Shown here: one piece after another, positions 44,151-52,855 of the stretch
Position numbering within the stretch: the stretch's first letter is position 1
Layout of the letters: each line of letters opens with the position of its first letter
Origin: Enoplolaimus lenunculus
Lineage: Eukaryota
Assembly (NCBI GenBank): GCA_030248215.1
Contig: JASANG010001128.1
Span: 248,001 to 312,000, forward strand
Direction of reading: 5' to 3'
DNA: 64,000 nucleotides
Made by a program: the position numbers and the translations under genes
The notes under the pieces: generated by a model
What the model was told of the DNA's origin: nothing
The model's database searches: none
The model's input: only the letters and a program-made list of their open reading frames with translations

Positions 44151-44339
44151 ACATCAAAAGTTTTAACTGCGTTAAAAACTACATATATTTTTACCTTACT
44201 ATTAATCCCTTGCACATTTAATGTAGTCCGTGTAAGTCTACTAGTCTGCATGGGAAATCGCACATTAACCTACTCCATTCTTTGTCGTTTAACTGCATGG
44301 GAAGGTGCGTACACTGTTTCGCTCGTTGAGTTTCCGTAC

Positions 44340-45828
44340 AACATCGACTTAAATGTGTCAATAAATCTTCAAATAAATTTCGTCCCTTCCAATACTGTCG
44401 ATAATTAGCTTTAGGATCATGTGTTTTAAGACCCATTCCCCATATGACATCCTTCGGATTACATTCAACCAATCTAGTACCACTAGTGTCAAACAATTTC
44501 TGTTTTAGCTCCACATTGTGAGAAAATTTCGCAAAATTTGCTTTCCACAACCACATCCACGCTTTTGTTCCAAATGACTTTTGATTCTGGCCACACGCTT
44601 TGCTGAGCAACACGCTTTACATCAACTGGGTCCTTCATTGCGTATAACCGTTCGCCTAGCGACTCCTCTCCCATATACAAAGCCCTTGATACAAACAAAT
44701 AATGCTGTACTTACCCATTTCCGACCGTCTTACACAAACTCACACTGATAATGATTTGAGAATTCGTTGTTTCGAGTAAAAAATTGTGTATAACGGTTGT
44801 ATTGGGTGTCCAGTTGCTGATCATTACTCAATGATGGCATCAGAACAGGACAGATTTCGTATTTTGATATATCTTCGCTGTCCCTATAGATTAAATGTTC
44901 GTTTGGGTTACTCGTTTCTACAGCATTTTCTGGCAACATTAACCCTGCTTCGACTTGAGCTACCATATCATTAGACTCACATTGCCCATGTTCGACAGTT
45001 GCACCTGCTGTATCTTGCGTCAGCTTATTATTTAGCATATTCTCTACATTTATATCATTATTTTCATCACAAGCAAAGCCGCCTGCCGGCTCAACTATGC
45101 CACCAGCCACTTCGGCATGCGAACGAGGTGTTTTTGTTTTTGATACGTAGAAACTTACGTCGATAGAATAATATTACAGTCCAAGGCTCGATGACCGAAT
45201 TTCCAGCACCTGTGACAACAAATTTGGCTTCCCCTCCACCAAATTTGTATTTTGCGCCTTAACTATTTTCATTTGATTTATACCACATAAATCCTGGAAA
45301 TTCCTTGACTGGTTCAACTTTAACTGAACGTGACCCATTAAAAATAGGCGATTGTGGATATTTGCAAATTCGAATATCCGATACTAATTTACACCCATTG
45401 TCCTCTAGTGTTTTTTGCAAAATTAAATTACTGTCCAATAAAGGTATTTCATGTATATAAATCACCCGGGTTTTTGGCCTTGGAATACCGCTTTCCGGAT
45501 GCGGAAGCTCTAGTTCAAACATCATATTGTCTATCACTAACTTTACATTAATCGCATTTGTCCGCTGTTCATTTGAAAAATATACCAGCTGTAACATACC
45601 CCGTAAAAAGTCCGCTGCATACGGAAGCAAATCCGGAGAATTGTCAGCTGCTAACTTTGCCATTATAGCGTTCTTAGTCCAGTGTTCCATGTCCGATCCG
45701 CGTAAATTTGCAAAGGCCGTGCGTGCTATCGTTTCAGACTGCTTTGTCGTTGTCATAAACTTTTGACTTGTAATACCGTTGTCCACACTGTCTGTGTCCG
45801 CTGCTGCGTCCTCCTTTTACTCATCCAT
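44340..45828 (-). pseudogene. LINE ORF1-NADAR fusion, copy 1 (frameshifted)
   Basis: RVIYIHEIP..SN..L...L...G.K.VS.IR..PIFNGSRSV.V..FPGF, then IWWRG..CHRCWKFGHRALDC (45176-45217), SHAEVAG, and FSNHY..HY..RA..KFSHN.ELKQKLFDT..RLVECNPKDVIWGMG..WKGRNL. Confidence 0.8.
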
Positions 45829-45859
45829 TTGGCCAACTGGCCCAAAAAACGATTAACGT

Positions 45860-46152
45860 TACTGCACATCCATAATTTTACATCTAACAGATAATGCTCT
45901 GCCAGGAATTTCAAAATTACTGCTTAATTCGGTTATTATAACCCCACAATCCTTTTCTGAAGATATAATTATTTGAAATCTTTGACCAAAGATACTAGTA
46001 AAATCATTTCTAGCTACTTCTCACACTATTAAAGTTTCAGTTAATACTATTACATGAAAACTTTTAACTGCATTATAAACTTCATTCATTTTTACCTTAC
46101 TGTTAATCCCTTGCACATTTAATGTAGTCAGTGTAGGTCTACTAGTCTGCAT
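45860..46152 (-). pseudogene. LINE ORF2 N-terminal APE endonuclease fragment (repeated in each unit)
   Basis: MQTSRPTLTTLNVQGINSKVKMNEVYNAVKSFHVIVLTETL..GV..IPGRALSV shows the NVxG and LxET motifs of L1-type endonucleases. It has one internal stop and is truncated after about 97 codons. Confidence 0.75.
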
Positions 46153-46239
46153 CGGAAATCGCACCTTAACCTACTCCATTCTTTGACGTTTAACTGCATG
46201 GGAAGGTGCGTACACTGTTTCGCTAATTGAGTTTCCGTA

Positions 46240-49644: not shown

Positions 49645-50069
49645 TTGGCCAACTGGCCCAAAAAACGATTAACGTTACTGCACATCCATAATTTTACATC
49701 TAACAGATAATGCTCTGCCAGGAATTTCAAAATTACTGCTTAATTCGGTTATTATAACCCCACAATTCTTTTCTGAAGATATAATTATTTGAAATCTTTG
49801 ACCAAAGATACTAGTAAAATCATTTCTAGCTACTTCTCACACTATTAAAGTTTCAGTTAATACTATTACATGAAAACTTTTAACTGCATTATAAACTTCA
49901 TTCATTTTTACCTTACTGTTAATTAATCCCTTGCACATTTAATGTAGTCAGTGTAGGTCTACTAGTCTGCATCGGAAATCGCACCTTAACCTACTCCATT
50001 CTTTGACGTTTAACTGCATGGGAAGGTGCGTACACTGTTTCGCTAATTGAGTTTCCGTACATCATACAT

Positions 50070-51552
50070 CGCCTTAAATGTGTCAGTTAATCTAGAAATA
50101 AATTTCGTCACTTCCAATACTATCGATCATCAGCTTAAGAACCATGTGTTTTAAGACGTATTCCCCATTGACATCCTTCGGATTACATTCAACCAATCTA
50201 GTACCACTGGTGTCAAACAATTTCCGTTTTAGCTCCACATTGTGAGAAAATTTAGCAAAATTTGCTTTCCATAACCACATCCACGCTTTTGCGTTCCAAA
50301 TGTCTTTTGATTCTGGCCACACGCTTTGCTGAGCAACACGCTTTACGTCAACTGGGTCCTTCATTGCGTATAGCCGTTCGCCTAGCGACTCCTCTCCCAT
50401 ATACAAAGCCCTTGATACAAACAAATAATGCTGTACTTACCCATTTCCGACCGTCTAACACAAACTCACACTGATAATGATTTGAGAATTCGCTGTTTCG
50501 AGTAAAAAATTGTGTATAACGGTTGTATTGGGTGTCCAGTTGCTGATCATTACTCAATGATGGCATCAGAATAGGACAGGTTTCGTATTTTGATATATCT
50601 TCGCTGTCCCTATAGATTAAATGTTCGTTTGGGTTACTCGTTTCTACAGCATTTTCTGGCAACATTAACCCTGCTTCGACTTGAGCTACCATATCATTAG
50701 ACTCACATTGCCCATGTTCGACAGTTGCACCTGCTGTATCTTGCGTCAGCTTATTATTTAGCATATTCTCTACATTTATATCATTATTTTCATCACAAGC
50801 AAAGCCGCCTGCCGGCTCAACTATGCCACCAGCCACTTCGGCATGCGAACGAGGTGTTGTTGTTTTTGATACGTAGAAACTTACGTCGATAGAATAATAT
50901 TACAGTCCAAGGCTCGATGACCGAATTTCCAGCACCTGTGACAACAAATTTGGCTTCCCCTCCACCAAATTTGTATTTTGCGCCTTAACTATTTTCACTT
51001 GATTTATACCACATAAATCCTGAAAATTCCTTGACTGGTTCAACTTTAACTGAACGTGACCCATTGAAAATAGGCGATTGTGGATATTTGCAAATTCGAA
51101 TATCCGATACTAATTTACACCCATTGTCCTCTAGTGATTTTTGCAAAATTAAATTACTGTCCAATAAAGGTATCCCATGTATATAAATCACCCGGGTTTT
51201 TGGCCTTGGAATACCGCTTTCCGGATGCGGAAACTAGTTCAAACATCATATTGTCTATCACTAACTTTACATTAATCGCATTTGTCCGTTGTTCATTTGA
51301 AAAATATACCAGCCGTAACATACCCCGTGTAAAGTCCGCTGCATACGGAAGCAAATCCGAAGAATTGTCAGCTGCTAACTTTGCCATTATAGCGTTCTTA
51401 GTCCAGTGTTCCATGTCAGATCCGCGTAAATTTGCAAAGGCCGTGCGTGCTATCGTTTCAGACTGCTTTGTCGTTGTCATAAACTGTTGACTTGTAATAC
51501 CGTTGTCCACACTGTCTGTGTCCGCTGCTGCGTCCTCCTCTTACTCATCCAT
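50070..51552 (-). pseudogene. LINE ORF1-NADAR fusion, copy 4 (extra 2-nt deletion near 51235)
   Basis: Near-identical repeat (track ORFs 51154-51510, 50985-51191, 50348-50836, 50092-50424). Confidence 0.78.
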
Positions 51553-51974
51553 TTGGCCAACTGGCCCGGAAAAACGATTAACGTTACTGCACATCCATAA
51601 TTTTACATCTAACAGATAAAGCTCTGCCAGGAATTTCAAAATTACTGCTTAATTCGGTTATTATAACCCCACAATCCTTTTCCGAAGATATAATTATTTG
51701 AAATCTTTGACCAAAGATACTAGTAAAATTATTTCTAGCTACTTCTCACACTATTAAAGTTTCAGTTAATACTATTACATGAAAACTTTTAACTGCATTA
51801 TAAACTTCATTCATTTTTACCTTACTATTAATCCCTTGCACATTTAATGTAGTCAGTGTAGGTCTACTAGTCTGCATCGGAAATCGCACCTTAACCTACT
51901 CCATTCTTTGACGTTTAACTGCATGGGAAGGTGCGTACACTGTTTCGCTAATTGAGTTTCCGTACATCATACAT

Positions 51975-52855
51975 CGCCTTAAATGTGTCAGTTAATCTAG
52001 AAATAAATTTCGTCACTTCCAATACTATCGATCATCAGCTTAAGAACCATGTGTTTTAAGACGTATTCCCCATTGACATCCTTCGGATTACATTCAACCA
52101 ATCTAGTACCACTAGTGTCAAACAATTTCTGTTTTAGCTCCACATTGTGAGAGAATTTCGCAAAATTTGCTTTCCACAACCACATCCACGCTTTTGTGTT
52201 CCAAATGTCTTTTGATTCTGGCCACACGCTTTGCTGAGCAACACGCTTTACGTCAACTGGGTCTTTCATTGCGTATAACCGTTCGCCTAGCGACTCCTCT
52301 TCCATATACAAAACCCTTGATACAAACAAATAATGCTATACTTACCCATTTCCAACCGTCTAACACAAACTCACACTGATAATGATTTGAGAATTCGTTG
52401 TTTCGAGTAAAAAATTGTGTATAACGATTGTATTGGGTGTCCAGTTGCTGATCATTACTCAATGATGGCATCAGAATAGGACAGATTTCGTATTTTGATA
52501 TATCTTCGCTGTCCCTATAGATTAAATGTTCGTTTGGGTTACTCGTTTCTACAGCATTTTCTGGCAACAACAACCCTGCTTCGACTTGAGCTACCATATC
52601 ATTAGACTCACATTGCCCATGTTCGACAGTTGCACCTGCTGTATCTTGCGTCAGCTTATTATTTAGCATATTCTCTACATTTATATCATTATTTTCATCA
52701 TAAGCAAAGCCGCCTGCCGGCTCAATTATGCCACCAGCCACTTCGGCATGCGAACGAGGTGTTGTTGTTTTTTGATACGTAGAAACTTACGTCGATAGTA
52801 TAATATTACAGTCCAAGGCTCGATGACCGAATTTCCAGCATCTGTGACAACAATG
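51975..52855 (-). pseudogene. LINE ORF1-NADAR fusion, copy 5 (5'-truncated at the zinc knuckle)
   Basis: Homology to the unit stops at TGTGACAACAA (~52852). Confidence 0.75.

What the first reader, a model, noticed from the sequence alone, without database searches (positions are those of the whole stretch)
44151..52855. L1/Tx1-type retrotransposon whose ORF1 protein ends in a NADAR domain
Seen: joining frames across about three frameshifts gives one ~500-aa ORF1 with an RRM-like region, CHRCWKFGHRALDC zinc knuckle, SHAEVAG, an acidic linker and a complete NADAR (FSNHY, KF, LVE, DVIWG, WKGRNL). Shortly after comes an ORF2 start with APE motifs (TLNVQG, VIVLTET, PGR). Known: ORF1 accessory modules usually cited are RRM, CCHC, PHD and esterase; I do not know of a characterised ORF1-NADAR. 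Inference: the RNP-forming protein would carry an ADP-ribose/N-glycosidase activity to the element's RNA or cDNA, possibly as an anti-silencing or damage-reversal module.
Basis: partly seen in the sequence, partly recalled or inferred. Interest (0 to 1): 0.85.

Follow-up and report, generated by a model that had tools for sequence, protein, structure and literature searches.

The report
Tandem array of dead ORF1-NADAR LINEs
This stretch is not one jumping gene but about four and a half head-to-tail copies of the broken front end of one, whose RNA-coating protein ends in a NADAR enzyme domain that would likely strip ADP-ribose from nucleic-acid bases; the pairing is real, but it was already noted in print for oyster elements and this copy is dead.

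Summary
The 8.7 kb is not one retrotransposon, though. It is a tandem array of about 4.6 units of ~1.9 kb, 96-99.5% alike. Each unit holds ORF1, a NADAR domain and the first ~97 codons of a probable ORF2 endonuclease.

- **State of the copies:** no reverse transcriptase lies in the window. Every unit needs four frame changes, three of them shared by all units. Units drift neutrally (dN/dS about 0.95). These are dead copies.
- **The fusion is real:** an exhaustive protein search found eight intact 427-580-aa proteins with the same order (RRM-like domain, CCHC knuckle, linker, C-terminal NADAR). One aligns collinearly with the window across its three frames. Their NADAR domains and the window's form one clade.
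- **ORF1 fold:** the N-terminal part is predicted to be a double RRM.
- **Prior knowledge:** Genome Biol 2025 (PMC12477816) already notes NADAR in ORF1 of Tx1 LINEs of Crassostrea gigas. This scan met the fusion in at least five other genomes.
- **Open points:** the biochemical role is untested. "L1/Tx1" cannot be tested without an RT.
- **New here:** the tandem-array form, and a second, unrelated NADAR ORF beside an integrase 7 kb away.

The parts
44151..52853 (-). Tandem array: about 4.56 units of a 1.9-kb LINE 5' fragment. Units as phased by blastn: u1 46055-44151, u2 47961-46056, u3 49871-47962, u4 51780-49872, partial u5 52853-51781.
   Evidence: Direct-repeat spacing is 1901-1910 bp. blastn of one unit against the window gives 5 collinear matches and none elsewhere. 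Pairwise identity is 95.7-99.5%, with alternate units the most alike. Logan contigs bridge the unit junction, and one contig 'goes back 1856'.
52869..53037 (-). Older, diverged scrap of the NADAR C-part. It abuts the CCHC region of the partial fifth unit and marks the ragged 5' edge of the array.
   Evidence: blastn gives 87.5% identity to unit positions 1518-1621. Translation.
45259..45816 (-). Unit 1, ORF1 N-terminal piece (185 aa): acidic N-terminus plus a predicted double RRM. Equivalent pieces: 47165-47722, 49075-49632, and 50985-51540, which is split by an extra shift.
   Evidence: Aligns with the N-terminal domains of 8 intact relatives, with 7 invariant columns. tblastn with P0022 residues 41-191 gives E 2e-13. 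AlphaFold model has pLDDT 76.4 and beta-alpha-beta-beta-alpha-beta topology. The listed Foldseek PDB hits are tandem-RRM proteins, best E 1.1e-5. Pfam finds nothing.
45176..45217 (-). Unit 1 CCHC zinc knuckle CHRCWKFGHRALDC, in a different frame from the RRM piece. Other copies: 47082-47123, 48992-49033, 50902-50943, 52808-52849.
   Evidence: The C-X2-C-X4-H-X4-C spacing is read directly from the sequence. It aligns to the knuckle of P0031 (52% over 25 aa, E 4.4e-5). Pfam zf-CCHC does not hit the window piece but hits relatives P0158 and P0075.
44730..45173 (-). Unit 1 third-frame piece: SHAEVAGG, acidic linker and NADAR N-terminus (FSNHYQCEF at 44736-44762). Unit 1 alone has an in-frame stop just after it.
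   Evidence: Translation. tblastn with P0031 residues 327-379 gives E 1.3e-7.
44221..44710 (-). Unit 1 NADAR middle and C-part plus the ORF1 tail, in two frames (44489-44710 and 44221-44616). It carries HYLFVSR, KANFAKFS, LVECNP, DVIWG and WKGRNL. Units 2-5 shift frame after 'DV'.
   Evidence: Pfam PF08719: E 3.1e-15 over profile 78-156 for the C piece, and E 0.057 over profile 41-103 for the middle piece. PDB sequence hits are 8BAU (E 9.8e-4) and YbiA 2B3W (E 0.15). A family NADAR HMM gives E 5.8e-28 and 1.3e-21. The pieces sit in the ORF1-type NADAR clade.
45862..46152 (-). Probable ORF2 start: the first 97 codons of an APE-type endonuclease, with TLNVQG, VIVLTET, GVIIT and one in-frame TGA. 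It overlaps the ORF1 stop by about 25 nt. About 33 nt further on, the next unit's ORF1 begins. Copies occur at every unit junction. The last copy (44251-44151) is cut after about 33 codons.
   Evidence: Translations. The only PDB sequence hit is human LINE-1 endonuclease 8SP5, residues 5-35, at E 1.4, which is not significant. The best ESM Atlas cluster carries Exo_endo_phos in 13% of members, score 0.94. Pfam finds none.
43396..44150 (+). Left flank: an ORF of a different, multi-copy, integrase-bearing element, cut off exactly where the array begins.
   Evidence: In 3 of 3 runs, contigs match up to 44150 and then run on with one shared, different sequence. No Pfam family was found.

Best explanation
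Window 44151-52853 (minus strand) is a head-to-tail array of about 4.6 copies of a 1.9-kb broken front end of a LINE retrotransposon; each copy holds a type-I ORF1 (predicted double RRM, CCHC knuckle) that runs on into a NADAR domain, followed by the first ~97 codons of what is likely the ORF2 endonuclease.

Shown:
- The array, and the frameshifts shared by all units.
- Neutral drift between units.
- The absence of an RT in the window.
- Intact relatives in which RRM, CCHC, linker and NADAR form one ORF.

Inferred history: one already-dead copie was cut down to [ORF1 start ... endonuclease codon ~97]. It was then amplified by unequal crossing-over, at least once as a two-unit block. Both ends were later lost to further rearrangement.

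Inferred function in living relatives: ORF1p coats the element's RNA through its RRMs and knuckle. The tethered NADAR would hydrolyse an N-glycosidic ADP-ribose-base bond (guanine-N2-ADP-ribose is the known NADAR substrate) on the element's RNA, cDNA or target DNA. That would undo a host ADP-ribosyltransferase mark. I give this mechanism about 35%. It cannot operate from this locus.
For: Array:
- Repeat spacing is 1901-1910 bp, with 5 collinear blastn matches and none elsewhere in the window.
- Units are 95.7-99.5% alike. u4/u2 are 99.5% and u5/u3 98.9% alike, against 98.5-98.8% for neighbours.
- Contigs of 3 runs cover the unit junction.

Dead copies:
- Three frame changes are common to all units, plus one private to unit 1 or to units 2-5.
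- dN/dS is 0.0327/0.0347 for the RRM piece, unit 1 against unit 2.
- No RT or endonuclease Pfam hit appears in the 73 ORFs scanned outside the array (12, 31), nor in the pieces.

The fusion is real:
- The exhaustive search with the NADAR C piece gave 2438 proteins at E<=1e-3.
- I scanned 44 of the 150 best listed with Pfam. P0022, P0026 and P0031 have one C-terminal NADAR behind 280-350 unassigned residues. P0075 has zf-CCHC plus NADAR.
- A profile search added P0155-P0160.
- P0022 is collinear with unit 1 over RRM, CCHC and NADAR N, middle and C in three frames.

NADAR in relatives and in the window:
- Mapped through 8BAU, the 8 intact relatives keep the Glu-43 position in 8 of 8, and the Glu-125 position (LVE) in 8 of 8. 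The Lys-50 position is K in 5, R in 2 and M in 1.
- On a tree of 172 NADAR domains, the 10 ORF1-type rows, the 2 window pieces and 4 fragments form one clade, SH-like support 96.

Fold: tandem-RRM hits.

Chemistry: NADARs hydrolyse guanine-N2-ADP-ribose on DNA, eukaryotic ones included. A clam enzyme, CARP-1, is cited as a maker of that adduct (PMC11543638, passages).
Against: - The endonuclease call is not statistically supported: Pfam finds none and the PDB hit has E 1.4.
- No full-length relative with ORF2 could be fetched, so 'LINE' for the relatives rests on ORF1 architecture, on this window's ORF2 start and on the paper.
- In this copy the codon at the conserved catalytic Glu reads Gln (units 1, 2, 4) or stop (units 3, 5) and lies next to a frameshift. 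The paper reports the equivalent E-to-Q mutant as inactive.
- No substrate, host transferase or activity has been shown for any ORF1-NADAR.
- YbiA-type NADARs also act on small riboflavin intermediates.
- The runs that confirm the junctions may come from the sample behind the assembly.
Confidence: 0.8

Rival explanations
1. In living relatives the NADAR domain of ORF1 is not an eraser of nucleic-acid ADP-ribosylation. It would act instead as a small-molecule N-glycosidase like YbiA, or as a non-catalytic ADP-ribose or nucleotide binding module that helps RNP assembly or localisation.
For: E. coli YbiA and plant NADARs are described as N-glycosidases of riboflavin intermediates, and physiological targets of free-standing NADARs are called unknown (PMC11543638 passages). 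Earlier notes of this scan report LINE families whose ORF1 NADAR lost catalytic residues yet is kept (unchecked here). The Lys-50 position varies (K, R or M) among the 8 relatives.
Against: Both Glu positions and the D-x-x-WG motif are kept in 8 of 8 intact relatives, which points to catalysis. Fusion to an RNA-binding protein argues for a nucleic-acid substrate.
Confidence: 0.3
2. The array is a host gene family: a domesticated ORF1-NADAR gene amplified in tandem and used by the animal.
For: The tandem, same-strand arrangement resembles a gene cluster. Molluscs do have host proteins with several NADAR domains, from Haliotis rubra and Mercenaria mercenaria.
Against: Every unit has four frame changes and some have stops. 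dN/dS is about 0.95 between units. Each unit drags along a truncated ORF2 start.
Confidence: 0.03
3. The tandem repetition is an assembly artefact of a single ORF1-NADAR fragment.
For: Long, near-identical repeats are prone to mis-assembly. The confirming runs may be the same sample.
Against: Units differ by 10-61 substitutions and by private indels, in an alternating pattern. Contigs span the endonuclease-to-ORF1 junction, and one contig loops back by 1856 bases. That junction exists only if at least two units are in tandem.
Confidence: 0.05
4. NADAR and ORF1 are juxtaposed here by chance, as a host NADAR pseudogene lying next to a LINE fragment, and do not form a real fusion.
For: In the window the pieces lie in different frames.
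Against: Eight intact proteins carry the same order in one ORF. The window is collinear with P0022. The window's NADAR sits inside the ORF1-type clade.
Confidence: 0.02

Closest known systems
ORF1 proteins of Tx1 LINE families of Crassostrea gigas (Repbase) with a YbiA-family NADAR domain, noted in Genome Biol 2025, PMC12477816 (passages read; Fig. S2 legend)
   Same: LINE ORF1 carrying a NADAR domain in a marine invertebrate. The paper likewise only speculates that the domain processes the element's RNA intermediate.
   Different: No Repbase sequence was available, so identity with those families is untested. This locus is a dead, RT-less tandem array and not a consensus element.
Type I ORF1p of non-LTR retrotransposons (at least one RRM plus a CCHC knuckle; Khazina and Weichenrieder 2009, as summarised in PMC5203782, passages read)
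   Same: A predicted double RRM followed by one canonical CCHC knuckle. No coiled coil or Transposase_22 was found.
   Different: It carries an extra enzyme domain at the C-terminus. Pfam RRM and zf-CCHC models do not hit the window copy itself.
NADAR / YbiA hydrolases: Phytophthora nicotianae NADAR (PDB 8BAU), E. coli YbiA (2B3W), DarT1-associated NADAR antitoxins (PMC11543638)
   Same: Pfam PF08719. The FSNHY, (T)E(H/Q)YLF, LVE and D-x-x-WG motifs are present. Both catalytic Glu positions are kept in intact relatives.
   Different: The domain is fused behind an RNA-binding protein of a retrotransposon and has no DarT partner. Only about 35-45% identity to the nearest NADARs. In this window the first catalytic position is not Glu.
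Gypsy LTR retrotransposons of Ectocarpus with NADAR at the N-terminus of Pol (PMC12477816)
   Same: A retroelement that independently carries a YbiA-family NADAR.
   Different: A different element class and a different protein (Pol, not ORF1). The paper suggests a bacterial origin for that domain.

Membership tests
LINE (non-LTR retrotransposon), L1/Tx1 clade | ORF2 with a reverse transcriptase domain whose phylogeny places it in L1/Tx1 | tested here: not met
   No RVT or any RT hit appears in the window's ORFs. The array units stop at ORF2 codon ~97. The clade therefore cannot be assigned from this locus.
LINE (non-LTR retrotransposon), L1/Tx1 clade | APE-type endonuclease at the ORF2 N-terminus | tested here: inconclusive
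   TLNVQG, VLTET and GVIIT occur in the right order. The N-to-E spacing is 27 residues; the 29 of human L1 is recalled, not tested. Pfam finds none. The only PDB hit is L1 endonuclease at E 1.4. The Atlas lead is Exo_endo_phos in 13% of the best cluster.
LINE (non-LTR retrotransposon), L1/Tx1 clade | ORF1 directly upstream of ORF2 on the same strand | tested here: met
   The ORF1 stop lies about 25-31 nt downstream of the ORF2 ATG, in another frame, in every unit.
LINE (non-LTR retrotransposon), L1/Tx1 clade | 3' end with a poly(A) or simple-repeat tail, and target-site duplication | tested here: not met
   The low-coordinate end of the array (44151) lies inside the endonuclease start and abuts a truncated foreign element. 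No 3' UTR is present.
Type I ORF1p | At least one RRM | tested here: met
   The model has pLDDT 76.4 and two beta-alpha-beta-beta-alpha-beta-like domains. Foldseek gives 84 PDB matches at E<=0.001, and the listed ones are tandem-RRM proteins. This is a prediction, not a solved structure.
Type I ORF1p | CCHC zinc knuckle after the RRM | tested here: met
   C-X2-C-X4-H-X4-C is present in 5 of 5 copies. It aligns to the knuckles of relatives that Pfam calls zf-CCHC (P0158 at 26.3 bits, P0075 at 23.2 bits). The window piece itself gets no Pfam hit.
NADAR (PF08719) | Profile match above the curated cut-off | tested here: met
   The C piece scores 57.2 bits against a cut-off of 35.1. Intact relatives score 84-118 bits over profile positions 3-162.
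NADAR (PF08719) | Catalytic residues: Glu-43, Lys-50 and Glu-125 of P. nicotianae NADAR (PMC11543638) | tested here: not met
   Window copies read Gln (units 1, 2, 4) or stop (units 3, 5) at the Glu-43 position, next to a frameshift. They read Arg at Lys-50 and keep Glu at Glu-125. Intact relatives: Glu in 8 of 8; K in 5, R in 2, M in 1; Glu in 8 of 8.
ORF1-NADAR LINE family (as in C. gigas Tx1, PMC12477816) | RRM, CCHC and NADAR in one ORF1 | tested here: met
   This is met at family level: 8 intact relatives. The window is collinear with them but broken. Direct comparison with the Repbase entries was not possible with these tools.

The most novel reading that the evidence does not exclude
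NADAR is a counter-defence module that unrelated mobile elements of this animal have picked up independently. Here it sits on a LINE ORF1 and, 7 kb away, as a free-standing ORF just upstream of the integrase of a different multi-copy element. This would imply that the host marks invading RNA or DNA by base ADP-ribosylation, with CARP-1/pierisin-like enzymes known from shellfish, as an undescribed restriction system against transposons and viruses. The dead tandem array itself might serve as a source of antisense or small RNAs against the family.
Probability: 0.2. Interest if true: 0.8.

Novelty: new member of a known kind. Interest (0 to 1): 0.3.

Why it matters
ORF1 proteins of LINEs are usually seen as passive RNA chaperones. 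An enzyme that erases ADP-ribose from bases, tethered to the RNP, would point to a chemical arms race between hosts and retrotransposons that nobody has tested.

This locus adds little to that question. It is a dead, RT-less copy, and the fusion is already in print and was seen repeatedly in this scan. It does add three things:
- The family's NADARs form one clade, and intact members keep both catalytic glutamates.
- The ORF1 front part is predicted to be a double RRM.
- Such fragments can be amplified into a 1.9-kb-period tandem array.

The neighbouring integrase element with its own, unrelated NADAR is the lead most worth following.

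Tried and rejected
**Searches that gave nothing useful**
- No whole genome is held for this window.
- Word-indexed protein searches for longer relatives found none, with the RRM piece or with the NADAR C piece. The exhaustive search then did find relatives.
- The metagenome scan with the ORF1-NADAR profile returned 14 loci, all matching only the NADAR part (query residues about 263-442). None has an ORF1 part, so no full-length element was obtained.
- The viral-contig scan with the flanking 256-aa ORF found no relative.
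- Earlier-findings look-ups by sequence or place returned nothing.

**Family and structure look-ups**
- Pfam found nothing for the RRM piece, the linker piece, the CCHC piece, the endonuclease start or the flanking ORFs.
- ESM Atlas on the RRM piece returned unnamed eukaryote clusters, with RRM_1 in 18%, PRE_C2HC in 14% and DUF4780 in 93% of members in lower rows. These are leads only.

**Sequencing runs**
- No RNA holder is listed; three DNA runs of one study hold the unit.

**Not possible or not done**
P0026 lies on a 6146-base contig.
- I considered using the loose-end consensus to look for the rest of the flanking element beyond the array. I did not, because that element may be virus-like.

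**Rejected readings**
- Host gene cluster, chance juxtaposition and assembly artefact: see the rival explanations.

Full report
**What is in the sequence**

The region is not one element. Direct-repeat analysis gives families with five copies spaced 1901-1910 bp apart. blastn of one unit against the whole window gives five collinear matches, at 52853-51781 (partial, from unit position 835), 51780-49872, 49871-47962, 47961-46056 and 46055-44156. It also gives an 87.5%-identical scrap of the NADAR C-part at 52968-52869, and nothing elsewhere.

Units are 95.7-99.5% identical. Alternate units are the most alike: u4/u2 at 99.5% and u5/u3 at 98.9%, against 98.5-98.8% for neighbours. This suggests at least one amplification step as a two-unit block. 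The terminal unit 1 is the most diverged, at 95.7-96.9%.

**Anatomy of a unit, in 5'->3' order on the minus strand**

- An acidic N-terminus and a 185-aa piece.
- In another frame, CHRCWKFGHRALDC.
- In a third frame, SHAEVAGG, an acidic linker and FSNHYQCEF.
- After another shift, HYLFVSR...KANFAKFS...RLVECNPKDV.
- The ORF1 tail.
- Overlapping the ORF1 stop by about 25-31 nt, an ORF beginning MQTSRPTLTTLNVQGINS...VIVLTET...GVIITEL. It has one in-frame TGA and ends after about 97 codons.
- About 33 nt later, the next unit's ORF1 begins.

Motif counts in the region: the CCHC knuckle, SHAEVAGG, FSNHYQCEF, KANFAKFS and LVECNPKDV occur 5 times each; TLNVQGI 5 times; VIVLTET 4 times; DVIWGMG and WKGRNL once each, in unit 1 only.

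Three frame changes are shared by all units. Unit 1 has a private 2-base gap between HYLF and KANFAKF and an in-frame stop. Units 2-5 have a private 1-base gap after 'DV'. Unit 4 has a further 2-base gap inside the RRM piece. The ancestor of the array was therefore already broken.

Between unit 1 and unit 2 the RRM piece has 18 nucleotide and 13 amino-acid differences, with dN 0.0327 and dS 0.0347. That is neutral drift.

**Domain calls**

- *NADAR.* Pfam finds NADAR in the unit-1 C piece (PF08719, 57.2 bits, cut-off 35.1, profile 78-156). It finds it weakly in the middle piece (E 0.057, profile 41-103) and finds nothing in the other pieces. PDB sequence hits of the C piece are the Phytophthora NADAR 8BAU (E 9.8e-4) and YbiA 2B3W (E 0.15).
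- *RRM.* The 185-aa N-terminal piece, folded with an alignment of nine other rows (the unit-1 copy and 8 intact relatives), gives a model of mean pLDDT 76.4 with two beta-alpha-beta-type domains. Foldseek against the PDB gives 84 matches at E<=0.001. The listed ones are two-RRM proteins (hnRNP A1 UP1, hnRNP A2/B1, HuR, HuD, U2AF65, Sxl). The best has E 1.1e-5, aligned over about 145-175 columns, with low TM (about 0.3) because the two domains are oriented differently. The 'RRM-like region' is thus predicted to be a double RRM.
- *Endonuclease.* The ORF2 start is only weakly supported by tools. Pfam finds none. The single PDB hit is human LINE-1 endonuclease, residues 5-35, at E 1.4. The best Atlas cluster carries Exo_endo_phos in 13% of its members. 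The motif order and the resemblance of 'LNVQGINS' to L1/Tx1 endonuclease starts are my recollection, not a test.
- *RT.* No RT or other endonuclease signal is found in the window's other ORFs.

**Is the fusion real?**

The exhaustive HMMER search with the NADAR C piece gave 2438 proteins at E<=1e-3 and 63 at E<=1e-10. I passed 44 of the 150 best listed (the longer ones) to Pfam. All 44 have NADAR.

- Many are multi-NADAR or Macro-NADAR proteins.
- P0022 (466 aa), P0026 (502 aa) and P0031 (526 aa) have a single C-terminal NADAR behind 280-350 unassigned residues.
- P0075 has zf-CCHC followed by NADAR.

Their sequences show the same plan as the window: acidic N-terminus, RRM-like region, C-X2-C-X4-H-X4-C, linker, FSNH(F/Y), TE(H/Q)(F/Y)LF, LVE and D-x-x-WG.

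tblastn of P0022 on unit 1 is collinear:
- residues 41-191 on 45723-45268 (E 2e-13),
- the knuckle on 45259-45176,
- then the NADAR N, middle and C parts in three frames, with residues 349-429 on 44592-44350 (43% identity, E 4e-20).

These E-values are for a 2-kb subject.

A profile of the four proteins found 30 proteins at E<=1e-5. Among them are further full-architecture members P0155-P0159 (427-580 aa) and P0160, a UniRef gene model of the nematode Romanomermis culicivorax with zf-CCHC_3 plus NADAR. The remaining 22 match only the NADAR part. Most family members come from unnamed Logan assemblies, so their hosts are unknown to me.

**NADAR state and origin**

I mapped the paper's residues through the alignment of P0022 to chain 8BAU_A. 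The chain index is the paper's numbering plus 2, consistently for three residues.

| Position (P. nicotianae NADAR) | 8 intact relatives | Window copies |
|---|---|---|
| Glu-43 | Glu in 8 of 8 | Gln in units 1, 2, 4; stop in units 3, 5; directly beside a frameshift |
| Lys-50 | K in 5, R in 2, M in 1 | Arg |
| Glu-125 (LVE) | Glu in 8 of 8 | Glu kept |

For the tree, I extracted 222 NADAR domains from 183 proteins. I kept 172 of them: those covering at least 75% of a family HMM, plus three window rows. On a FastTree of these 172, the 10 ORF1-type rows, the two window pieces and four short fragments (P0009, P0045, P0071, P0129) form one clade with SH-like support 96. This fits a single capture, but it is a quick tree without bootstrap. 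High-scoring hits outside that clade include multi-NADAR host proteins of the molluscs Haliotis rubra and Mercenaria mercenaria.

**Edges and history**

At the low-coordinate end, the array stops at 44151 inside the endonuclease start (codon ~33). There it abuts a +-strand ORF of another repeat family. In 3 of 3 runs, contigs follow that family up to 44150 and then continue with one shared, different sequence. So both elements are truncated at this junction. It is not a target-primed insertion site.

At the other end, the partial fifth unit starts in the knuckle region and is preceded by an older NADAR scrap.

Contigs of runs X1 and X2 span 45637-46107 and 45450-46117, which covers the endonuclease-to-ORF1 junction. 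One X3 contig 'goes back 1856'. These runs may derive from the sample behind the assembly.

My reading, which is inference: a dead copy was reduced to the segment from the ORF1 start to endonuclease codon ~97. It was then amplified by unequal exchange and later eroded at both ends.

**Likely function in living relatives (inference)**

Type I ORF1p (RRM plus CCHC) binds the element's RNA (PMC5203782, passages).

NADARs hydrolyse ADP-ribose from the N2 of guanine in DNA. The activity is conserved in a eukaryotic NADAR. The authors list pierisins and the clam protein CARP-1 as makers of the same adduct, while stressing that reversal of those marks by NADAR is not shown (PMC11543638, passages). 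A 2026 paper reports cytidine ADP-ribosylation reversed by NADARs (PMC12945103; listing and start of abstract only).

A NADAR tethered to the RNP would therefore most simply clean ADP-ribose marks off the element's RNA, cDNA or target site. I put this at about 35%. A small-molecule or binding role is the main rival.

**What is known already**

PMC12477816 (Genome Biol 2025) states that ORF1 proteins of several Tx1 LINE families of Crassostrea gigas in Repbase appear to carry YbiA-family NADAR domains. It suggests a role in processing the RNA intermediate (passages; Fig. S2 legend).

My literature searches were:
- 'NADAR domain' + ORF1 and YbiA + retrotransposon: these returned only that paper.
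- DUF1768 + transpos*: two unrelated papers.
- NADAR + retrotransposon: 140 papers. Of the 20 listed I opened only PMC12477816; from their titles and abstract starts, the other 19 do not concern the NADAR domain.

This scan's own index holds 20 notes on ORF1-NADAR LINEs in at least five other genomes, all naming the same paper. I had found the paper before reading them. By sequence, none of them resembles this window.

**Verdict**

- The fusion is genuine at family level and already published in passing.
- This locus is a dead, rearranged tandem array without RT.
- The clade is untestable here.
- Interest is modest. The tandem-array form and the neighbouring integrase element with its own unrelated NADAR are the only new points.

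Noticed in passing
window 36840-38684 (+): A free-standing NADAR ORF (36840-37400; PF08719, E 1.8e-19, profile 10-137) lies 240 bp upstream of an rve integrase ORF (37638-38684; PF00665, E 1.3e-12) on the same strand. It shares only 33% identity over 55 aa with the LINE NADAR. On the NADAR tree it is a long branch outside the ORF1-type clade. Contigs of three runs bridge the gap between the two ORFs. The summed depth is similar across both ORFs and across 43600-44150. The window's copy differs from the majority of contigs by several one-base indels. This is possibly a second kind of mobile element with its own NADAR.
   Followed up: partly
window 41578-44166 (+): A series of +-strand ORFs (98, 120, 155 and 256 aa; the last two are in one frame, separated by a stop) has no Pfam family and no relative in viral contigs. 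They belong to a multi-copy family that continues past 44150 in other copies. They are presumably part of the integrase-bearing element, whose kind is unknown.
   Followed up: partly
window 36681-38014: Contigs of runs X1 and X2 join 38014 back to 36681 ('goes back 1334'). Some copies of the NADAR-integrase element therefore carry a duplication or another arrangement of this segment.
   Followed up: no
window 36300-36700: Summed contig depth is in the thousands, against a few hundred next door, and there are many loose ends. This is a very high-copy short repeat immediately upstream of the NADAR ORF.
   Followed up: no
window 35714-35992 (+): A fragment of a piggyBac-type transposase (PF13843 DDE_Tnp_1_7, E 8.4e-8, profile 268-341 of 349).
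   Followed up: no
window 23926-25394: A 16-bp minisatellite, GTAGGACAGCGGGACA, in 94.6 copies with 83% matches. It explains the GC 0.56 and the strong GC and AT skew of 24-26 kb, and the three overlapping long 'ORFs' on the minus strand.
   Followed up: yes
window 18647-23460 (+): Two long open frames match the sodium:neurotransmitter symporter family: PF00209, E 3.4e-83 (best stretch on profile 1-135) and E 1.7e-98 (profile 226-515). This looks like a host SNF transporter gene with unusually long exons, or a retrocopy.
   Followed up: no
proteins P0001, P0004, P0005, P0006, P0010, P0011, P0012, P0087 (search hits): Animal proteins with 2-7 NADAR domains in tandem, for example P0001 with 7 stretches in 4240 aa, Haliotis rubra XP_046578080 and Mercenaria mercenaria XP_045176895. 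They are among the best matches to the LINE NADAR. There are also Macro-NADAR fusions (P0036, P0116, P0128, P0148).
   Followed up: no
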